The translations under genes were made by a program, and so were the position numbers. This document shows positions 3,193 to 11,390 of a stretch of DNA of 27,306 nt, piece after piece (the first letter of the stretch is position 1; each line of letters begins with the position of its first letter). The notes beneath the pieces were generated by a model. The model worked only from the letters and a program-made list of their open reading frames with translations. It was not told the DNA's origin and did not search any database. Source of the DNA: Patescibacteria group bacterium (lineage in GTDB: Bacteria > Patescibacteriota > Minisyncoccia > Phycocordibacterales > PALSA-1337); assembly GCA_028864955.1 (NCBI GenBank), contig JAGWLE010000001.1:1-27306 (forward strand), read 5' to 3'.

Positions 3193-5136
3193 TTATTTTG
3201 TCACTGTTTCCTGCCCTTGGGCATACTGCGGATCCGTACTGAATCGCGTGGTCAAAGGCGCTTGGGTGCTCTGGAGGGTCGTATTCGTAAAGGTGTCTGT
3301 GCCGCTGAGCGTCGCTTGATTGACTAGTGTCGGGATCGAACCTGCTTGAGTGACCGAGGGCGTATACGATATCTGGAAAGCGACCTCGCGCCGGCGCATT
3401 GAATCGAGCGTATACGTGCCGACATTGCCCACCTGCCAAGTAACTGTGCCGGTATTCGGGTCATAATTGACCTGTTCATTCGGCGGACTGACCTGTCCCA
3501 GCCACTTCACATATGTCGGCAAAGTTGCCGTCATGACGCCGTTAGTCACCGGATTGGCGGTATTGTCGACATCCCAGATAACCGTGTACGTTGTCGGCTG
3601 TTCGACTTTTGGCGGCACGAGACCGGTGTTTGCAAACGGACCGATGCTCCTGACGACGCGGCCGGATAGCACGAGGTTGCTGGCGATCTTGGTCGTACGG
3701 GTTACGGCGTCCGTCACGCTTTGCGGCACGTTGGCCTCCTGCGCGCGATTGCCGCTGACATTCACGTTGAAGACCAGCGTCGGATTGACCAGAGGCTGCG
3801 AAGCCGTGCCGAGATCCCTGGGCGTGATTGAAAATGTCAGGTGCCCGCTCGCGCCGGCGGCCGCGGTGCCAAGTTCCGGATTTGTTTGCGTGTTCCACGT
3901 AATGGTATTCGCGCCGGAATCAAAAAATCCCTGGTCCGGTTGGACAGTCGTCTTGTCGTAGGCCGTGCCGGAAAGATTGGCAGTGATGACCATATTGGAT
4001 ACGGCCACCGACAGATTATTGAACCAGTCAATCTCCACCTTCTCGCTGTTATCAAACGAACCGACATGGTCGCCGCTGCCGGTATCATTATCGATATTGA
4101 CGTTCAAGGAAACAAAAGGCTTCTGGATCGTCATATCCTGTTCGACATTCATGTATTCGGAACCGATAGTCGAAGGACTGCCGGGATTCTGCGTGCCGAC
4201 ACTGAAATGGAAGACGCGCAGGTCGGTATCTTCACCGGTCAAACGGCCATGTAGGACGATCTTGCGTTCTCCGCCAGGCGGAATATCGCCGATATTCCAG
4301 GTCGACGTGTCAGTGTATGTCGGCAAACTCGATGACAGCAGAGTGTAACCGAACGGATAGGTTCCTTTGACGAGGATATTGTGAAGCGTCTGGGCGGAAT
4401 TCGATTTGAGATCGACTGTCAGATCAAATTCCTGTCCGGACGTGATCTGATTATACGAAGATACTGTCACATTAAGCGGCGACGAGTTAATAAGCACGTC
4501 GTATGATTGCGTCTTTGTAAACACCGCCGATGACCCTTTGACGCTGTATGTCAACGTAACATTTATCTCCTTTTGCAGATTTTCCTCGCCGAATATGATG
4601 GCACTAACCGTCTGGTGGACACTGCCGCCGGCCGGGATCGTGCCGAGCACTTTGTCGATGTTTTGAAGGGGCGTGCCGGAATTGCTGGGATCGGCGCTAC
4701 CCTGCGGGAAAGCGATTGCCATGTCGGTCAGTTCAAGATCGACGTTATTTTTGTTCTGAACGGTGATATTGAACGTCTCCGGCACGCCGGCTGGAATAGA
4801 TACTGGCCCGCTGATCTGGATATCGATATTGTTAGCGGAGATAAGGTTGCCGCCGTTGAAGAATATGTACGCGCCAACGCCGACCGCCAAAATGCAGAAG
4901 ATGGCGGACATGATGAGAAATTTGGCGGCAAATGACATGGGGCGTCGGTCTTCGTACGCTTGGTTGAGCTCCTTGGGACGAACATCGTCCTCGGCCGGAT
5001 GCTCCCAGTCAGACTTGAGACTGGTCTCTTCGTTGCTATAACGAAGCTTCCGGCGTGATCGGATATCCGGAGCGTTTCGGGAATAGAGCGATGTATTGAG
5101 CTCCTCGATGCGGCTTTTGTCCTCTTCAGATGGCAC
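3193..5136 (-). CDS. Single-pass membrane protein with tandem extracellular Ig-like (DUF11/CARDB-like) beta-sandwich domains
   Basis: 647 aa: charged N-terminal tail, one TM helix (FLIMSAIFCILAVGVGAYIFF), then Thr/Ser/Asn-rich beta repeats such as TTYTVIWDVDNTAN. GTG start 7 nt after TGGTATACT. Confidence 0.75.
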   Translation of the reverse strand: MPSEEDKSRIEELNTSLYSRNAPDIRSRRKLRYSNEETSLKSDWEHPAEDDVRPKELNQAYEDRRPMSFAAKFLIMSAIFCILAVGVGAYIFFNGGNLISANNIDIQISGPVSIPAGVPETFNITVQNKNNVDLELTDMAIAFPQGSADPSNSGTPLQNIDKVLGTIPAGGSVHQTVSAIIFGEENLQKEINVTLTYSVKGSSAVFTKTQSYDVLINSSPLNVTVSSYNQITSGQEFDLTVDLKSNSAQTLHNILVKGTYPFGYTLLSSSLPTYTDTSTWNIGDIPPGGERKIVLHGRLTGEDTDLRVFHFSVGTQNPGSPSTIGSEYMNVEQDMTIQKPFVSLNVNIDNDTGSGDHVGSFDNSEKVEIDWFNNLSVAVSNMVITANLSGTAYDKTTVQPDQGFFDSGANTITWNTQTNPELGTAAAGASGHLTFSITPRDLGTASQPLVNPTLVFNVNVSGNRAQEANVPQSVTDAVTRTTKIASNLVLSGRVVRSIGPFANTGLVPPKVEQPTTYTVIWDVDNTANPVTNGVMTATLPTYVKWLGQVSPPNEQVNYDPNTGTVTWQVGNVGTYTLDSMRRREVAFQISYTPSVTQAGSIPTLVNQATLSGTDTFTNTTLQSTQAPLTTRFSTDPQYAQGQETVTK

Positions 5137-5883: not shown

Positions 5884-8800
5884 TTAGGCTGCGAGCCCTA
5901 GCGTCGCCCCCTCTTCGATAGACGTCAGATTCGTCGCCTTTTTTATTTCTGCCTCAAATTTATTCACAAGTGACTTCAATTCGGCCGGAACGACAAGCAC
6001 GGCTATGTCACTAACCTTGAGGCCTTTCTCCTTGCGCAGATCCTGAATCTTGCGCAAAAGCTCGCGAAGATCACCTTCTTCCTTGAGAGCCGCTGAAATG
6101 TCCGTATCAAGCTTGTCTTCGGTTGCGCCAAATACGATCTCCTTGACATTAAGCTCATCTTTGATGATTTCGCCAAGACTGATCACGGCTGAAGTGGTTG
6201 AGAATGAAGCGAGCGGCTGGCGCACATTGATCTTGGCCGCATTGCGCGCTTCGAGTCCTTTGGAGGAAATCTGCCGCGCGATTTCCATTTCTTTGAGAAG
6301 TTTTTCGTCGACGGCACCGGCTGCCGGCCACTCTGTCAGGTGCACAGACTCCAGCTCTCCGCCGACTTCCTTGTAGGCGTATTCGGAAAAGAACGGCGTA
6401 AATGGCGCCATGACTTTGGCGAGAGTAAGGAGAATCCAACGTGTTGTATTCAGAGCCGACTGCTTGTCCGCTTCATCATCTCCCTTGAATCGGTCGCGCG
6501 AACGGCGCAGATACCACTGCGATAGGTCTGCCACAAAATCGCGAATGGCGCGCGTCGGCTCGAGGAAAACGTAGGCATCCATGCCTTTCGTGACGGCTTC
6601 GATCAGCTGATTCATTCGCGAAACGATCCAGCGATCAAGCACATTCTGCGATTCTGGTTGCACCGTGTCACTTGTGACTTTTGACTTCTGACTTTTGACT
6701 TTTGACTTCTGACTTGGCTCTTGTGACTTGTGACTTTCAACCTTCGGCCTATGTTCATAAATCTTGTAGAAACTTGTCACATTCAATGCGAGATTGAAGA
6801 CTTTCTTGACGACTTCATCAACGGTCTTCTCGTCAAAATTCTTTGATTCTCCCGGCTGATTGACACTGTACATCCAGAAGCGCAGCGCATCAGCACCATA
6901 CTTGTCCATCATCTCGAATGGATTGACGACGTTGCCCAACGACTTGGACATCTTTTTGCCATCGGCGTCGAGGATGTGGCCGAGGCAGATGACATTCTTG
7001 TACGCCTTGCCCATACCCATGAGCGTGCCGACCGCGTGCAAGGTGTAAAACCAGCCGCGTGTCTGGTCGATGGCTTCAGAGATAAAGTCCGCCGGATATG
7101 CCAGTTTCTGCTCATGACCGAAGATCTTGCTGAGCAATCCGTGTGACTCTTGATTTTCGACTTTCGACTCAAATGGATAGTGATCCTGCGCAAATGGCAT
7201 GGCGCCGCTGTCGAACCAGACATCCATGACTTCCTTGACCCGCTTCATGTCGCCGCCGCAGCTACAGGCGAGCTTCGTGTCATCGATATACGGCCGATGG
7301 AGATCGAGCTCATATTCCGGGTTATGCGGCACGATCCTGAAGTCGACCTTCTTGTAATGGCCTTTCTGAATATAGTTGTTGAGTTCATAGGCGATGGTTT
7401 GCTCCCTATCCCAGCCGTGCGCGGCTGCGATAAGCATCATCGTCGGACTGCCGTGTGAAACGATCAGGATCTTCTTGCCAGAATACTTTGATTCGATGTC
7501 ATAGAGGAAATCACCCATGCGCTTCTTCACCTCGGCGTATGTTTCAACGCCGACCGGCGATTTGCTAAATCGGTAGATGTCCATGGGAAATTCCTTCATG
7601 AATCCCTCGAGAGGCTTGCCGTTCCATTTGCCGAGAGCCATCTCCTGCAGACGATCGTCTGTTATAAATTGTTCATCAGCAAGCCCGAACATTTTCTGTA
7701 CGATACGAGCCGATTCCTGCGTGCGCATAAACGGCGAAGCGAAGATGAGATCTATGCCTTCACCTTTGAGCGGCGCCAGATGTTCGGCGATCTTTTGTTT
7801 GCCGACTTCAGTCAGATGATTCGAGACGTTTGCATCGGAATTGAGCAGGCCTTTCGCATTGAATTCGGCCTCACCGTGTCGCATGATCCAGTACTCATTC
7901 TTGGGCTTGCGCGCGATCTCTTCGACGGAACCGACAACACGGCGCACGCCGCACTTTTCGCACAACCACACAGGCAACGGCGTACCCCAATAGCGCTCTC
8001 GTGAAATGGCCCAATCCTTGACCTCGCGCAACCACTCGCCAAAGCGGCCTTCTTTGATATGTTCAGGCTCCCAGTGGATGCCTTCGTTTTCCCTGACCAG
8101 CTTGTCGCGAAGTTTGGACATGGCGATGTACCAGCTGTCGCGAGCGAAATAGATGAGCGGCGTATGACAGCGCCAACAGAACGGATACGTATGCTCATAT
8201 TTTTCCTTGTAGAACAGGAGTCCACGATACGCCAGATCTTTGATGATCTCCACCGCCACCGCCTCGTCATCCTTCACGAACTTCCCCGCCAAGAATCCAG
8301 CTTCTTTCTTGAATGTGCCGTCGTCGTTCACCAGGTGATACTTTGGCAAGCCGACGCGCGTGCCGAGCTCGAAGTCGTCCTGACCATACATCGGCGCCAT
8401 ATGCACGATGCCCGTGCCATCTTCTGTGGTCACGAAATCACCGGCATAGACTTTGAATGCATTCGTGAGTTTTTCTTTTTCTGCACCACTCACATTGTCT
8501 TTCAAGAATGGGTAGAGAGGCTCGTATTCGGTACCAATCAGGTCTTTGCCCTTGAATGTTTCAACAATTGATGGATTCTTGAAATGACCTCTAACAGATT
8601 CAAATCTGTCTTTAGCAAGAATATAGAATTGAGACATCGTCTCAGAAACATTAGGTGTCAATCCATTTAACTCCTCCTTTACAGGCTCACCAATAAACAA
8701 ATCTTTAATTTTGACATACTCAATCTTTTCATTGACGGCCAAACCGACATTTCCAGGCAATGTCCACGGCGTCGTCGTCCACGCAAGGAGATACGTGTCG

Positions 8801-9492
8801 CCAGGTTTTTCACTTTCGACTTTTGACTTTTGGCTTTTGACTTTTAACTTCACATACACCGACAAATCCTTGACCGTCTCATACCCCTGTGCCAATTCAT
8901 GCGACGACAACGCCGTACCGCAGCGCGGGCACCAGGGCACGACTTTATAGTCCTTATAGAGGAGCTTCTCGTGATCGACGTGCTTGACGATGTTCCAGAC
9001 TGATTCGATGAAGTTTGGCTTATATGTGACATAGGCATTCTTCAAATCAACCCAAAATGCCATACGTTCGGTGAGTTCTTCCCATTCGCGTACATACGTC
9101 CAAACAATCTCTTTGCACTTGGAATTAAACTCCTCGATACCGTATGCGTCAATTTCTTTTTTTGACCTAATGCCAAGCTCCTTCTCTGCCTGGAGTTCGA
9201 CGGGTAATCCGTGAGTATCCCAGCCTCCGCGACGACGTACGCGATAGCCGCGCATGGTCTTATAGCGCGGAATAGCATCCTTGAAGGCGCGCGATTCAAA
9301 ATGACCGATATGCGGCCGCCCATTAGCGCCTGGCGGTCCCTCGTAAAAAACAAACTCGCCCTTTGGCGCGGGCTTATTCAGGGACTTTTCAAAAATGCCC
9401 TGCTCTTTCCAAAATGCAAGAATAGACTCCTCACGTTCTGCATGAGGAGATTTTGGATGTTCTGTCTTTTTCGAGTCAGCCTGATCTGCCAT
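5884..9492 (-). CDS. ileS: Isoleucine--tRNA ligase, type 2 (IleRS2), with inserted histidine phosphatase domain
   Basis: GPPGANGRPHIGH, GWDTHGLPVE, WTTTPWTLPGN, GTGIVHMAP, DWAISRERYWGTP, VMDVWFDSG, EAIDQTRGWFY and KMSKS. C-terminal EG.LRELLRKIQDLRKEKGL.VSD is characteristic of type 2. Confidence 0.97.
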   Translation of the reverse strand: MADQADSKKTEHPKSPHAEREESILAFWKEQGIFEKSLNKPAPKGEFVFYEGPPGANGRPHIGHFESRAFKDAIPRYKTMRGYRVRRRGGWDTHGLPVELQAEKELGIRSKKEIDAYGIEEFNSKCKEIVWTYVREWEELTERMAFWVDLKNAYVTYKPNFIESVWNIVKHVDHEKLLYKDYKVVPWCPRCGTALSSHELAQGYETVKDLSVYVKLKVKSQKSKVESEKPGDTYLLAWTTTPWTLPGNVGLAVNEKIEYVKIKDLFIGEPVKEELNGLTPNVSETMSQFYILAKDRFESVRGHFKNPSIVETFKGKDLIGTEYEPLYPFLKDNVSGAEKEKLTNAFKVYAGDFVTTEDGTGIVHMAPMYGQDDFELGTRVGLPKYHLVNDDGTFKKEAGFLAGKFVKDDEAVAVEIIKDLAYRGLLFYKEKYEHTYPFCWRCHTPLIYFARDSWYIAMSKLRDKLVRENEGIHWEPEHIKEGRFGEWLREVKDWAISRERYWGTPLPVWLCEKCGVRRVVGSVEEIARKPKNEYWIMRHGEAEFNAKGLLNSDANVSNHLTEVGKQKIAEHLAPLKGEGIDLIFASPFMRTQESARIVQKMFGLADEQFITDDRLQEMALGKWNGKPLEGFMKEFPMDIYRFSKSPVGVETYAEVKKRMGDFLYDIESKYSGKKILIVSHGSPTMMLIAAAHGWDREQTIAYELNNYIQKGHYKKVDFRIVPHNPEYELDLHRPYIDDTKLACSCGGDMKRVKEVMDVWFDSGAMPFAQDHYPFESKVENQESHGLLSKIFGHEQKLAYPADFISEAIDQTRGWFYTLHAVGTLMGMGKAYKNVICLGHILDADGKKMSKSLGNVVNPFEMMDKYGADALRFWMYSVNQPGESKNFDEKTVDEVVKKVFNLALNVTSFYKIYEHRPKVESHKSQEPSQKSKVKSQKSKVTSDTVQPESQNVLDRWIVSRMNQLIEAVTKGMDAYVFLEPTRAIRDFVADLSQWYLRRSRDRFKGDDEADKQSALNTTRWILLTLAKVMAPFTPFFSEYAYKEVGGELESVHLTEWPAAGAVDEKLLKEMEIARQISSKGLEARNAAKINVRQPLASFSTTSAVISLGEIIKDELNVKEIVFGATEDKLDTDISAALKEEGDLRELLRKIQDLRKEKGLKVSDIAVLVVPAELKSLVNKFEAEIKKATNLTSIEEGATLGLAA
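6668..6737. repeat. In-frame heptamer tandem array (TGACTTt/c/g x10 on plus strand) inside ileS
   Basis: tcacttg tgacttt tgacttc tgacttt tgacttt tgacttc tgacttg gctcttg tgacttg tgacttt; encodes KVESHKSQEPSQKSKVKSQKSKVTSD. Confidence 0.95.
7144..7171. repeat. Short in-frame heptamer array (4 units) inside ileS
   Basis: tgactct tgatttt cgacttt cgactca; encodes ESKVENQESH. Confidence 0.7.
7340..7900 (-). other. Histidine phosphatase (phosphoglycerate-mutase-like) domain inserted in IleRS (approximate boundaries)
   Basis: YWIMRHGEAEFN (RHG), ASPFMRTQESA, DDRLQEMALGKWNG, ETYAEVKKR and ILIVSHGS. Lies between IleRS segments CEKC..GSVEEI and DLHRPYID..CSCGG. Confidence 0.92.
8810..8851. repeat. In-frame heptamer tandem array (6 units, 42 nt) inside ileS
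   Basis: tcacttt cgacttt tgacttt tggcttt tgacttt taacttc; encodes KLKVKSQKSKVESE. Confidence 0.92.
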
Positions 9493-9532
9493 ACGTGTAA
9501 AAGTAAGGCTATTCTAGCACTTTTCGGCTGAT

Positions 9533-11320
9533 TTACATCCTCTTTGGCACCGTGATCCCGAGCAACCATAGGCCGTCTGTCATGACATTCGTGAATGCGC
9601 GCGTCAGAGCGACGCGATATGGCGAGAGTGGATCATGTTCGTCGATGATAGTCTGCGACGCATAGAAGCTGTTGAACTCGCCGGCAAGCGACACCAGATA
9701 ATTGGCCACCAGCTGCGGCGCATATTCCGCCTGAGCGCGCTCGACGACGTCGGCAAATCGCGAAAGCAATTTTTCCAGAGAGCCAACCTTGTCCGGCAGC
9801 TTGATTTCTGAAACACCTGATTCGTCTCCGACAAGATCCAACATGTCACCTGCCACTTTTGACGTGTGACTTTCGCCTTGTGACTTGTTACTTGTAACGT
9901 GTGCCTTCTCTAAAACTGAATTTGCGCGCACCACGGAGTATTGCAGATATGGCCCCGAATCGCCTTCGAAGGAGATCGACGCTGCCGAATCAAAGATGAT
10001 ATCACTGCCGATCGACGTGCGCAGGATCGAGTACTTGATGGCGCCGATAGCGATCGCGTCCGAAATCTCCGTCGCCTCCTCCGGTTCGAATTTCCGATCG
10101 GCTATTTTCTGTTTGACCATCTCCTTGATGTCTGAAATGAGCGACTCGGCCGTGACAACATTGCCCGTTCGGCTCGACATTTTGCCTGAAGCAAATCGCA
10201 TCATGCCATGGCCGATGTGCATGGTCTTTGCGCCGACATTTTGATCGATGAGCGATAGGGCTTTGACGAGAACTCTGAAATAGTCGTTCTGTTCGCTGGC
10301 CGTAACGATGATCGAACGTTCAAGATCAGGGTGGCTCTGGAACTTGCTCGTATTCAGGCCGATTTCCTTGGCCTCATAGGTCGGCAGTCCCAAAGCGTTC
10401 ACGAACACGCGCGTATGCAAGCCGTAGTCTTCGCCTCTAAAGACGACCGCGCCCTCGCTCATTTGGAAGACATTCTTCGTCAGGAATTCCTTGACGATCG
10501 ACAGACCGACCGGCGCCATGTCGCTCTCGAACAGAGTTTCGTCGAATTTCGTGCCGAGTCGGGCGTAGAGCATGTCGAAATGATCGAGGCTCCATTTCCT
10601 GCCCTTCTCATACAGCGCGTTTACATCCTTGCTCGATCGCTCATACAGCAGGCGATTCAAGACTTCGATGTCATCCTTGGCGGCAGGATCTTCTTCATAG
10701 GCTTTCGTGCCTTCGACGTACATTTTGCCCAGAAAATCTGTCCTCTCGGCGATCGGCGCGGCATCGCGCGGCATTTCGTCCCGGTGTTTTTGGATCGCCC
10801 AGACCGCTTTGGCGATATGCAAACCGATATCCGAGGTATAGCACATGCGGATCGTCTCGGCCCCGGAATATTCGATCAGCCGTGAGAGGGACTCTCCTAT
10901 GGCATTCGACATCAGATGTCCGATGTGGAAGACCTTGAACGTGTTTGGATCGGTGTATTCGATGATGATCTTTCGAGCCAGCGAATTTCTGGCCGCCGAG
11001 CGCGAATGAAGAGCAGCAGGCGCGCGCATCCGAATGACTGTACGGGCAAAAGCCTCGTCTCTGACTGAAAAATTGATAAAACCCGGACCGGCTATGAAAA
11101 CTTTGGCAACGGCAGGCGGCATAGATCGGCCGAACTCGGCAACGATCTTCCCGGCCAATGACTGCGGCGACATGCCGAGCTTCCGGGCGCCAACCATCGC
11201 TATGTTCGTTGAAAAATCCCCGTGCGCCGGATTATCCGGATATGCCAGCCGTATGCCTTGTTCGTCGAGGCCGAGCTTTTGGGCGATCTCCTTGAGGCGT
11301 TCCAATATCTCCGCTTTCAT
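9533..11320 (-). CDS. argS: Arginine--tRNA ligase
   Basis: HGDFSTN, GPGFINF, EYTDPN..K.FHIGHL, KMSSRTG, FEGDSGPYLQYS.VRA.SVL and C-terminal GL.LLGI.VPKRM. Start moved from 11368 to the ATG at 11320, 7 nt after TGCTAGAAT. Confidence 0.97.
   Translation of the reverse strand: MKAEILERLKEIAQKLGLDEQGIRLAYPDNPAHGDFSTNIAMVGARKLGMSPQSLAGKIVAEFGRSMPPAVAKVFIAGPGFINFSVRDEAFARTVIRMRAPAALHSRSAARNSLARKIIIEYTDPNTFKVFHIGHLMSNAIGESLSRLIEYSGAETIRMCYTSDIGLHIAKAVWAIQKHRDEMPRDAAPIAERTDFLGKMYVEGTKAYEEDPAAKDDIEVLNRLLYERSSKDVNALYEKGRKWSLDHFDMLYARLGTKFDETLFESDMAPVGLSIVKEFLTKNVFQMSEGAVVFRGEDYGLHTRVFVNALGLPTYEAKEIGLNTSKFQSHPDLERSIIVTASEQNDYFRVLVKALSLIDQNVGAKTMHIGHGMMRFASGKMSSRTGNVVTAESLISDIKEMVKQKIADRKFEPEEATEISDAIAIGAIKYSILRTSIGSDIIFDSAASISFEGDSGPYLQYSVVRANSVLEKAHVTSNKSQGESHTSKVAGDMLDLVGDESGVSEIKLPDKVGSLEKLLSRFADVVERAQAEYAPQLVANYLVSLAGEFNSFYASQTIIDEHDPLSPYRVALTRAFTNVMTDGLWLLGITVPKRM
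9846..9908. repeat. In-frame degenerate heptamer array (9 units, 63 nt) inside argS
   Basis: tcacctg ccacttt tgacgtg tgacttt cgccttg tgacttg ttacttg taacgtg tgccttc; encodes EKAHVTSNKSQGESHTSKVAGD. Confidence 0.85.
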
Positions 11321-11361
11321 GCGGCCTATTCTAGCAAAATACCGCCATATAGACGATTGAT

Positions 11362-11390
11362 TTGACAAAGATATCGATTGGATGTATAAA
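11362..11390 (+). promoter_or_regulatory. Sigma70-type promoter TTGACA-N17-TATAAA
   Basis: TTGACA at 11362-11367, 17-nt spacer, TATAAA at 11385-11390; divergent from argS. Confidence 0.85.

What the first reader, a model, noticed from the sequence alone, without database searches (positions are those of the whole stretch)
6668..9908. Strand-biased in-frame heptamer (AAAGTCA) expansions in two essential aaRS genes
Seen: four arrays of one 7-mer family, with 10 units (6668-6737), 4 units (7144-7171) and 6 units (8810-8851) in ileS and 9 units (9846-9908) in argS. All read (A/C)AAGTCA on the coding strand and encode K/S/Q/V-rich peptides such as KVKSQKSKV. A 7-mer cycles through all three frames, so the opposite orientation (TGACTTT) would put TGA in frame within three units; this alone can explain the strand bias. 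Known: heptamer STRR repeats occur in cyanobacteria, and in-frame tandem repeats can create disordered loops. Inference: an active repeat-seeding process, possibly with its own enzyme elsewhere in the genome, writes disordered basic loops into housekeeping enzymes. These could be neutral, contingency loci or RNA-contacting patches.
Basis: partly seen in the sequence, partly recalled or inferred. Interest (0 to 1): 0.75.

Follow-up and report, generated by a model that had tools for sequence, protein, structure and literature searches.

The report
In-frame heptamer repeats inside aaRS genes
Short runs of a 7-base repeat (AAAGTCA) really are built into and translated as floppy surface loops of two essential tRNA-charging enzymes, and the same repeat also forms the two inverted arms around this genome's only "rRNA intervening-sequence protein" gene, which gives a testable lead on where such repeats come from.

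Summary
Three AAAGTCA-type period-7 tracts lie in ileS and one degenerate tract in argS. All are in frame, are reproduced by independent assemblies, and occur far above chance (14 period-7 arrays against 0.1 in shuffles).

They are insertions at length-variable loops that AlphaFold2 predicts as disordered. The family is genome-wide. It also sits in polA (twice), transketolase, rpsE and trmD, always with AAAGTCA on the sense strand.

Relatives carry period-7 tracts at the same protein sites, spelled with other units, and each genome reuses its own unit at many sites. In this genome the unit is also the inverted arms of the single PF05635 (four-helix-bundle, 23S-IVS-protein) gene cassette, wedged between the two transketolase subunit genes.

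Across relatives, in-gene units match cassette arms of the same genome nine times more often than arms of other genomes. In relative G021, 59% of 180 arrays belong to three cassette-arm families.

The stop-codon account of strand bias is right here but incomplete, because stop-free units are also purine-rich on the sense strand. No unit-number variation, reverse transcriptase or movement was seen.

This scan has reported the same phenomenon in other genomes. I found no published description.

The parts
5884..9492 (-). ileS (IleRS, 1202 aa), host of three heptamer tracts. It also carries a His_Phos_1 domain inserted at aa 535-706.
   Evidence: ORF list and translation. Pfam tRNA-synt_1 at 1e-111, Anticodon_1 and His_Phos_1. 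1ILE matches at 2e-225.
9533..11368 (-). argS (ArgRS, 611 aa), host of one degenerate heptamer tract.
   Evidence: Translation. Pfam tRNA-synt_1d, DALR_1 and Arg_tRNA_synt_N. PDB ArgRS matches.
6666..6737 (-). Tract at IleS site 3: about 10 AAAGTCA-type units, aa 919-943, between the KMSKS region and the anticodon-binding domain. It has an internal 21-nt (3-unit, in-frame) duplication.
   Evidence: TRF gives period 7 score 79 and period 21 score 92. It is about 21 aa longer than 1ILE and most orthologues. pLDDT is below 50 over 916-942.
7144..7171 (-). Decayed tract at IleS site 2: about 4 units, 2 of them perfect, aa 775-784, after DVWFDSGAMPFA.
   Evidence: TRF score 30. About 15 aa extra relative to 1ILE. 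pLDDT is below 50 over 773-796. G021 has a 105-nt composite heptamer element at the same site.
8807..8851 (-). Tract at IleS site 1: about 6 units, aa 215-229, forming the loop of the beta-hairpin just before the WTTTPWTL editing-domain motif.
   Evidence: TRF score 60. The loop varies in length across orthologues, several of which carry other heptamers here. Mean pLDDT is 52 for aa 221-230, between strands 204-218 and 233-239.
9846..9908 (-). Degenerate tract in ArgS: about 7.6 units at 67% matches, aa 488-508, in the linker between the catalytic core and the DALR domain.
   Evidence: TRF score 43. About 14 aa extra relative to 2ZUE. Relatives carry other heptamers at this linker. pLDDT is below 50 over 497-518.

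Best explanation
The four tracts belong to one dispersed heptanucleotide repeat family (unit AAAGTCA) of a small Patescibacteria-type genome. They are non-essential DNA carried inside essential genes and translated as disordered, hydrophilic K/S/Q/V loops at a few insertion-tolerant surface sites. The sites are long-lived: the same loops of IleRS, ArgRS, PolA and TrmD carry period-7 tracts in many relatives. The content, however, is genome-specific, and each genome writes its own unit or units into many sites. Those units are the ones that form the inverted tandem-repeat arms of that genome's PF05635 (23S-rRNA-IVS-protein, four-helix-bundle, Avd-like) gene cassettes. The most likely origin is therefore block-wise copying of pre-formed repeat tracts from other arrays or cassette arms, by template switching, gene conversion or an element-encoded activity. 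Independent birth of the same heptamer by slippage at each site is less likely. Selection then keeps only copies whose length is a multiple of 3, whose sense strand has no stop (TGACTTT places TGA in every frame within three units) and which encode hydrophilic residues in a permissive loop. Fixed tracts then decay by point substitution (argS is the most decayed) and occasionally change by 21-nt, three-unit steps. Shown: reality of the tracts, in-frame insertion at loops, the genome-wide family, the orientation rule, the same-site/different-unit pattern, and units shared with cassette arms. Inferred: block copying, the direction from cassette arms to genes, neutrality, and any role for the PF05635 protein.
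For: Reality and enrichment. Insertions at variable loops. Disordered loops. The same unit lies in nine in-gene tracts in seven genes: ileS x3, argS, polA x2, transketolase-C and rpsE, with trmD carrying the related unit AAAAGCC. All have AAAGTCA on the sense strand. It also lies 3' of a tRNA and in a hairpin inside a 23S group I intron. Same site with different unit across genomes, and same unit at different sites within a genome: (for example G011 AGATTCA in IleS and twice in ArgS, and G020 AAGGCGC at two IleS sites). The only PF05635 gene of the genome (C54 2552-2914, E 1.8e-24) is bracketed by inverted AAAGTCA arrays of 10 and 4 units that pair in the RNA fold. It is an insertion between the tktN and tktC genes, and the site is empty (1-19 nt) in G007, G008, G015 and G017. 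In relatives, 28 of 46 PF05635 genes have inverted tandem arms, against 27 of 2010 control pairs. Arms match in-gene arrays of the same genome in 9 of 47 pairs, against 30 of 1410 pairs across genomes. Presence of arrays in IleS/ArgS tracks presence of PF05635 (odds ratio 10, p 0.019). (CAGGGTA)x3 occurs 49 times in G021 and once in G017, the two genomes with AGGGTA-type cassette arms, and nowhere else among the 61 genomes searched. In 672 kb of G021, 107 of 180 period-7 arrays belong to three families that form the arms of three of its six cassettes. Block copying is shown directly in G021, where a roughly 105-nt composite of (AGGGTAC)4, (AAGTCAA)4 and (ACCCTGA)4 recurs nearly identically inside ileS, parB and secA, and in a truncated form lacking the right arm in polA. 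Single-unit slippage intermediates would be frameshifts in essential genes. The period-21 structure of the site-3 tract shows growth in three-unit steps.
Against: The cassette link is statistical, not absolute. G011 has 15 AGATTCA hits, yet neither of its two detected cassettes has such arms. G020 has arrays but no PF05635 hit. Only 9 of 47 same-genome pairs match. The relatives are kin, so the p-values overstate significance. G000 is 87% complete and fragmented. No target-site duplication, empty/filled polymorphism of an in-gene tract, unit-number variation or candidate polymerase/recombinase was seen, and no RT was found. Four in-gene sites are shared by G000 and G021 (IleS sites 1 and 2, PolA, TrmD). 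This fits inheritance plus rewriting as well as re-insertion, and I cannot explain how G021's arms came to flank an AAAGTCA core at sites where G000 has the core alone. Neutrality of the loops is untested.
Confidence: 0.55

Rival explanations
1. The cassette is a bystander. A genome-wide repeat-generating or homogenising process (slippage plus ectopic gene conversion) fills every tolerant place, including the flanks of PF05635 genes. Shared units then reflect common exposure and not a source-product relation.
For: Arrays exist without a detected matching cassette in G011 and G020. G000 holds other heptamer families (AGATTTA, CTATTCT) with no cassette in the assembled part. No mobilising activity was found.
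Against: Arm units are co-inherited with the PF05635 protein lineage across genomes. Pairs with at least 50% protein identity share arms in 20 of 106 cases, against 17 of 899 for less similar pairs. A family such as CAGGGTA is abundant only in the genome that has the matching cassette.
Confidence: 0.25
2. Each tract arose where it lies. Lysine-rich loop codons (AAA GTC AAA ...) seeded a microsatellite that grew by replication slippage, independently in every gene.
For: Heptamers are the over-represented long simple-sequence-repeat class in some prokaryotes (Mrazek et al. 2007, as summarised in PMC4679880). The site-3 tract contains an internal 21-nt duplication.
Against: The same unit recurs at 9 or more sites in one genome, while orthologous sites in relatives use other units. 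One-unit intermediates would be frameshifts in essential genes. The G021 composite element is copied as a block into four genes.
Confidence: 0.1
3. The tracts are selected for function. One version is that they add basic, flexible tRNA- or RNA-contacting loops to the synthetases. Another is that their mRNA copies, (AAAGUCA)n, pair with the (UUUUGAC)n 3' arm of the cassette transcript to form a post-transcriptional network.
For: The IleS site-3 and ArgS tracts, and a ValS/LeuS-like tract in G021, all lie at the junction to the anticodon-binding domain. The cassette carries the complementary arm. MacGregor proposed a regulatory role for TAACTGA repeats (PMC4679880).
Against: The same peptide occurs in transketolase, PolA, S5 and TrmD, and in G021 in RecJ, ParB and SecA. 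Many orthologues lack any insert at these sites. The argS tract is decaying at 67% matches. The loops are predicted to be disordered and are spelled differently in each genome.
Confidence: 0.08
4. The tracts are contingency (phase-variable) loci that switch the genes on and off by unit-number slippage.
For: A 7-nt unit shifts the frame. Heptamer phase variation is known elsewhere, and Coxiella IVS heptamers vary in number between strains (PMC4990558).
Against: The hosts are essential single-copy housekeeping genes. The tracts are interrupted. No length variant appears in four runs or in a second assembly, although depth was only 4-7x and only contigs were available.
Confidence: 0.02

Closest known systems
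Heptanucleotide long simple sequence repeats: cyanobacterial STRR, Xanthomonas/Nostoc GGGNATC (Rehm et al. 2015, PMC4692102), Beggiatoaceae TAACTGA (MacGregor 2015, PMC4679880)
   Same: These are dispersed tandem arrays of one 7-nt unit, a few to about 10 copies long, with lineage-specific units and a patchy distribution. The argument that the orientation tolerated in ORFs is set by stop codons in the unit was already made for TAACTGA.
   Different: The published families are mainly intergenic and under-represented in coding DNA. Here most copies are translated inside essential enzymes. Orthologous protein sites carry differently spelled arrays in different genomes, and the unit equals the arms of a PF05635 cassette.
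ORF-bearing 23S rRNA intervening sequences (Coxiella burnetii, Leptospira; S23p ORF; Warrier et al. 2016, PMC4990558)
   Same: A PF05635 four-helix-bundle gene is enclosed by terminal inverted repeats that form a long stem, with tandem heptamers directly before the start codon. The cassette on C54 has this build.
   Different: The cassette sits between two transketolase subunit genes, not in helix 45 of 23S rRNA. The IVS literature does not describe its arm unit being dispersed as solo in-frame tracts in housekeeping genes.
Rickettsia palindromic elements (RPE) inserted in frame in conserved genes
   Same: Selfish repeats survive inside essential genes by preserving the frame and lying in surface loops. 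The G021 composite hairpin behaves this way.
   Different: The G000 tracts are one-orientation tandem heptamers, not palindromes of about 100-150 bp. RPE have no associated four-helix-bundle gene (from my own knowledge, not tested here).

Membership tests
Heptanucleotide SSR / STRR-type dispersed repeats | Head-to-tail tandem copies of a 7-nt unit, more frequent than chance | tested here: met
   TRF results. 14 arrays against 0.1 in shuffles at score >=40.
Heptanucleotide SSR / STRR-type dispersed repeats | The same unit dispersed at many loci of one genome | tested here: met
   AAAGTCA-type arrays lie on contigs C18, C23, C25, C54, C62 and C75, with the variant unit AAAAGCC on C16. There are 17 pattern hits in G000 and 0 for the reversed control.
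Heptanucleotide SSR / STRR-type dispersed repeats | Predominantly intergenic location | tested here: not met
   9 of about 13 AAAGTCA-type loci lie inside ORFs of housekeeping genes.
IVS-like PF05635 cassette (applies to the partner element on contig C54, not to the in-gene tracts) | Gene of the 23S_rRNA_IVP / four-helix-bundle family | tested here: met
   PF05635 at E 1.8e-24 and 86 bits, against a cut-off of 33.8.
IVS-like PF05635 cassette | Terminal inverted repeats that pair into a stem and are built of tandem heptamers next to the start and stop codons | tested here: met
   Arms at C54 2941-3028 and 2515-2542. The arms pair in the minimum-free-energy fold, z -2.2. 28 of 46 relatives' copies are built likewise.
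IVS-like PF05635 cassette | Location in 23S rRNA and excision by RNase III | tested here: not met
   The cassette lies between Transketolase_N and Transketolase_pyr/C genes. RNase III processing cannot be tested with these tools.
Phase-variable contingency locus | Unit-number variation among reads, strains or assemblies | tested here: not met
   0 gaps in contigs of 4 runs. The sequence is identical in a second assembly. Power is low: contigs only, at 4-7x depth.
Phase-variable contingency locus | Host gene dispensable or surface/antigen-related | tested here: not met
   Hosts are IleRS, ArgRS, PolA, transketolase, S5 and TrmD.
Diversity-generating retroelement (Avd + RT) | Reverse transcriptase gene in the genome or next to the Avd-like gene | tested here: not met
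   PF00078 was not found in G000, which is 87% complete. The neighbours of the cassette are transketolase genes.
In-frame palindromic elements (RPE-like) | Palindromic or hairpin element inserted in frame in conserved genes | tested here: inconclusive
   Not met for the one-orientation G000 tracts. Met for the G021 composite element at IleS site 2, ParB and SecA.

The most novel reading that the evidence does not exclude
The PF05635 four-helix-bundle protein, or its cassette RNA, is the specificity factor of a repeat-writing or repeat-maintaining system. Each protein lineage recognises its own heptamer, and the in-frame tracts in housekeeping genes are trans products or footprints of that activity. 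If so, it would explain both the origin of bacterial heptamer repeats and the function of the long-orphan rRNA-IVS protein family.
Probability: 0.2. Interest if true: 0.85.

Novelty: new variant of a known kind. Interest (0 to 1): 0.62.

Why it matters
Heptanucleotide repeats (STRR and related families) and the 23S-IVS 'S23p' four-helix-bundle proteins have each lacked an explanation for some 30 years. Here the two are tied together in one small genome. The same 7-nt word forms the arms of the single cassette and the translated loops of at least six essential proteins, and across relatives the word changes together with the cassette lineage. That gives concrete experiments, such as protein-repeat binding assays and gain/loss mapping. 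The finding also shows that essential enzymes of ultra-small bacteria tolerate and keep repeat-encoded disordered loops at fixed sites. This matters for annotation, for alignment-based phylogenies of aaRS genes and for assembly, since contigs break or fold back at these repeats.

Tried and rejected
- **Assembly artefact:** rejected. Independent Logan contigs and a second assembly reproduce the tracts.
- **Unit-number variation:** none seen, but only low-depth contigs were available and the single read-laying run is spent.
- **Reverse transcriptase or DGR link:** PF00078 was not found.
- **Rfam over the repeat-bearing contigs:** only LSU rRNA, 5S rRNA and tRNA matched, plus a sub-threshold group I intron. 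No RNA family covers the arrays.
- **Literature:** searches for heptamer repeats together with four-helix-bundle/PF05635, or in CPR coding regions, found no description beyond the Coxiella IVS paper.
- **CAGGGTA arms around the G000 tracts, as in G021:** 0 hits in G000.
- **A common target motif or duplication at tract borders:** orthologues are too diverged (about 65-70% protein identity) for a DNA-level empty-site comparison, so this was not pursued.
- **Small GTNAC palindromes inside the tracts:** the reverse complement of the GTGAC core differs from it by one base, so I judged them uninformative.
- **An altered genetic code as the cause of the orientation bias:** not needed, since every gene reads through under table 11.


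Full report
**1. Observation**

The window is contig C23 of a 643-kb, 97-contig, 87%-complete assembly. Matching sequence occurs in runs labelled mine-drainage and soil metagenome.

ileS (5884-9492, minus strand, 1202 aa) and argS (9533-11368, minus strand, 611 aa) are intact.

Tandem Repeats Finder reports period-7 arrays at:
- 6666-6736: 10.1 copies, 81% matches
- 8807-8850: 6.3 copies, 83% matches
- 9855-9907: 7.6 copies, 67% matches

On the coding strand all read (A/C/G)AAGTCA. They encode K/S/Q/V-rich peptides at IleS 919-943, 775-784 and 215-229, and at ArgS 488-508.

Genome-wide, period-7 arrays with score >=40 number 14, against 0.1 in codon-block shuffles. Periods 8, 10 and 11 are at shuffle level.

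Contigs assembled independently from four runs cover all four tracts without gaps. Fragments of the same IleRS from another assembly are identical through the tracts.

**2. The tracts are insertions at disordered, length-variable loops**

I aligned 29 IleRS and 30 ArgRS orthologues from the same genus and order. The tracts fall in three IleRS loops and one ArgRS linker that vary in length, and many orthologues have no insert there.

Against T. thermophilus IleRS (1ILE), site 2 adds about 15 residues and site 3 about 21. Site 1 replaces the loop of the hairpin preceding WTTTPWTL. Against P. horikoshii ArgRS (2ZUE), the linker before the anticodon-binding domain is about 14 residues longer.

The AlphaFold2 models are confident overall (mean pLDDT 87.8 for ArgRS and 84.8 for IleRS). 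They give pLDDT below 50 at ArgRS 497-518 and at IleRS 773-796 and 916-942. IleRS 221-230 averages about 52.

**3. A genome-wide family with a strict orientation rule**

The same unit occurs in frame in:
- PolA, twice
- the C-terminal transketolase subunit
- the C-terminal tail of ribosomal protein S5
- TrmD, as a variant unit

All nine in-gene tracts have AAAGTCA on the sense strand. Non-coding copies lie directly 3' of a tRNA gene, in a hairpin at the 5' edge of a sub-threshold group I intron in 23S rRNA, and as both arms of a gene cassette described in section 5.

The same argument is in print for TAACTGA repeats (PMC4679880).

Relative G021 supplies a natural control. AAAGTCA arrays in long ORFs are 17:1 sense. 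The unit CAGGGTA, which is stop-free on both strands, occurs in ORFs in both orientations (18:12) and usually as hairpin pairs.

Stops are not the whole story, however. Among 29 period-7 arrays in IleRS/ArgRS of relatives, 15 have a stop-free reverse complement. All 15 are still purine-rich on the sense strand, and 14 encode the more hydrophilic peptide (p about 0.001). Selection for hydrophilic loops, or a strand-specific mutational bias, is needed as well.

**4. Same sites with different words, and same genome with the same word**

TRF on the orthologous coding sequences shows period-7 tracts at the same three IleRS sites, at two further IleRS sites, at the ArgRS linker and at a second ArgRS site in many relatives. 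The units differ from genome to genome:
- CAAAAGG and AAATCAA in G014
- AAAAGGC in G002
- AAGTGCA in G006
- AAGGCGC in G020
- AGATTCA in G011
- GAAGCAG in G001, and others

Within a genome the unit recurs at different sites. G011 has AGATTCA in IleRS and twice in ArgRS, and G020 has AAGGCGC at two IleRS sites with a related unit, CGCAAGA, at a third.

(TGACTTT)x3 with at most one mismatch occurs 17 times in G000 and 20 times in G021, once or twice in three other genomes, and not at all in 56 others. The reversed control gives zero hits.

G000 and G021 share at least four in-gene sites: IleRS sites 1 and 2, PolA after GTIVEQ, and TrmD.

**5. Link to the PF05635 cassette**

Reading the non-coding AAAGTCA arrays led me to a 120-aa ORF on contig C54 (2552-2914, minus strand). 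It is a 23S_rRNA_IVP / four-helix-bundle protein (PF05635, E 1.8e-24) and the only one in the assembly.

Ten AAAGTCA/AAGGTCA units lie just upstream of its start codon. Four inverted units follow its stop codon. In the RNA fold the two arms pair and enclose the ORF.

The end of contig C84 overlaps the end of C54. This places the cassette exactly between the Transketolase_N gene, whose stop codon abuts the first unit, and the transketolase C-terminal subunit gene. In G007, G008, G015 and G017 the same junction is only 1-19 nt long, so the cassette is an insertion.

Evidence from relatives:
- 34 of 61 genomes have PF05635 genes, with up to 8 copies each.
- 28 of 46 copies have inverted tandem-repeat arms of period 7, sometimes 8 or 9, abutting the ORF, against 27 of 2010 control pairings.
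- Arm units are co-inherited with the protein lineage. Cross-genome pairs with at least 50% protein identity share arms in 20 of 106 cases, against 17 of 899 for less similar pairs.
- G000's protein is closest to a G021 copy whose arms are also AAAGTCA-type.
- In-gene arrays match cassette arms of the same genome in 9 of 47 pairs (longest common substring >=10), against 30 of 1410 pairs across genomes. By eye, G001 (GAAGCAG) and G019 (GCAAAAA) match as well.
- Presence of arrays in IleRS/ArgRS tracks presence of PF05635 (9, 2, 4, 9; odds ratio 10; p 0.019).
- (CAGGGTA)x3 occurs 49 times in G021 and once in G017, the two genomes with AGGGTA-type arms, and in none of the other 59 genomes.
- In 672 kb of G021, 107 of 180 period-7 arrays belong to the three families that form the arms of three of its six cassettes.

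The relatives are kin, so these tests overstate significance.

There are also exceptions. G011 has 15 AGATTCA hits but no such arms on its two detected cassettes. G020 has arrays but no PF05635 hit.

**6. Block copying**

In G021 a roughly 105-nt composite recurs nearly identically, in frame, inside ileS (site 2), parB and secA. It consists of (AGGGTAC)4, then (AAGTCAA)4, then (ACCCTGA)4. This is a hairpin of one cassette-arm family around a core of another. A fourth copy, in polA, has the left arm and the core but lacks the right arm.

Such copies cannot arise by local slippage. In essential genes a one-unit step would also be a frameshift.

The IleRS site-3 tract scores higher at period 21 than at period 7 (92 against 79). 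This indicates a three-unit, in-frame duplication.

I therefore favour copying of pre-formed tracts into a small set of tolerant, long-lived sites, followed by selection on frame, stops and hydrophilicity, and then by decay.

What performs the copying is unknown. No reverse transcriptase was found, and no target duplication or polymorphic insertion was seen. I also cannot explain why G021 has arms around the AAAGTCA core at sites where G000 has the core alone.

**7. Comparison with what is known, and novelty**

The tracts are heptanucleotide simple-sequence repeats of the STRR/LSSR kind (PMC4679880, PMC4692102). Unlike the published families, they are mostly coding.

The partner cassette has the build of ORF-bearing 23S rRNA intervening sequences: an S23p ORF, a terminal inverted-repeat stem, and tandem heptamers before the start codon (PMC4990558). 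Unlike those, it lies in an operon.

I found no paper linking in-frame heptamer tracts in housekeeping genes to PF05635 cassette arms.

This scan has reported the same phenomenon on other DNA: e1-1304192, e1-2364707, e1-5252244, e1-1351816 and e1-2474491, among others. I reached the cassette independently before reading those notes. They supplied the Coxiella reference.

My classification is a new variant of a known kind. Contingency switching, an assembly artefact and a DGR are not supported.

Noticed in passing
window 7375-7890 (-), IleS aa 535-706: A complete His_Phos_1 (PF00300, E 4.6e-32) domain is inserted in IleRS between the residues matching 1ILE 478 and 487. All 29 orthologues of the order are of similar length (about 1105-1232 aa), so the insert appears conserved.
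   Followed up: partly
G000 contig C75 (L073) 149-526: The 23S rRNA gene carries a 378-nt insertion at LSU model position about 2619. Its 3' part is a sub-threshold group I intron (RF00028, 35 bits, E 1.7e-7). Its 5' part (157-260) is an imperfect hairpin of A-rich AAAGTCA-type heptamers paired to a T-rich array (fold z -2.0).
   Followed up: partly
G000 contigs C84 end / C54 end (L170, L070); loci L142-L161: The junction between the two transketolase subunit genes is an insertion hot spot. It is empty (1-19 nt) in four relatives and holds the PF05635 cassette in G000. Several relatives have a small hydrophobic ORF of about 100 aa there, G001 and G043 have what looks by eye like a toxin-antitoxin pair (not tested against protein families), and G002 has a short TAATTAG-type repeat hairpin.
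   Followed up: partly
G021 contig C1 end (L130 5389-5670 against 4680-4840) and C2 start: The ileS gene of relative G021 is broken over two contigs. The end of C1 is a fold-back (inverted) copy of the region holding the composite heptamer hairpin. This is probably an assembly artefact caused by the hairpin repeat.
   Followed up: no
G021 ArgS linker (L048) and PolA (L135): At the same loops that carry heptamers, G021 has a different insert, translated as ..VIPASRSEAKAQAGIQ..LDPRFRGDD in ArgS; in PolA the DNA reads ..GTCATTCCCGCGAAAGCGG... From memory it resembles a GC-rich palindromic repeat element often seen translated in spurious ORFs. This was not tested.
   Followed up: no
G000 contigs C8, C79 (AGATTTA) and C36, C62, C70, C76, C80 (CTATTCT): Two further heptamer families occur in G000, mostly just upstream of start codons or outside long ORFs. 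No matching cassette lies in the assembled part of the genome.
   Followed up: no
window 6760: All four Logan run assemblies and a second MAG read C where the window has A (IleS I911M). This is a fixed difference between this assembly and the others.
   Followed up: no
G003, G021, G024 (L094, L110, L089): PF05635 cassettes with AGATTCA arms sit at the same place in three genomes, directly after a gene ending ..DDWGAVPAFLRR that looks like an FtsZ C-terminus. Their proteins are 72-75% identical. This looks like an orthologous, long-retained cassette.
   Followed up: partly
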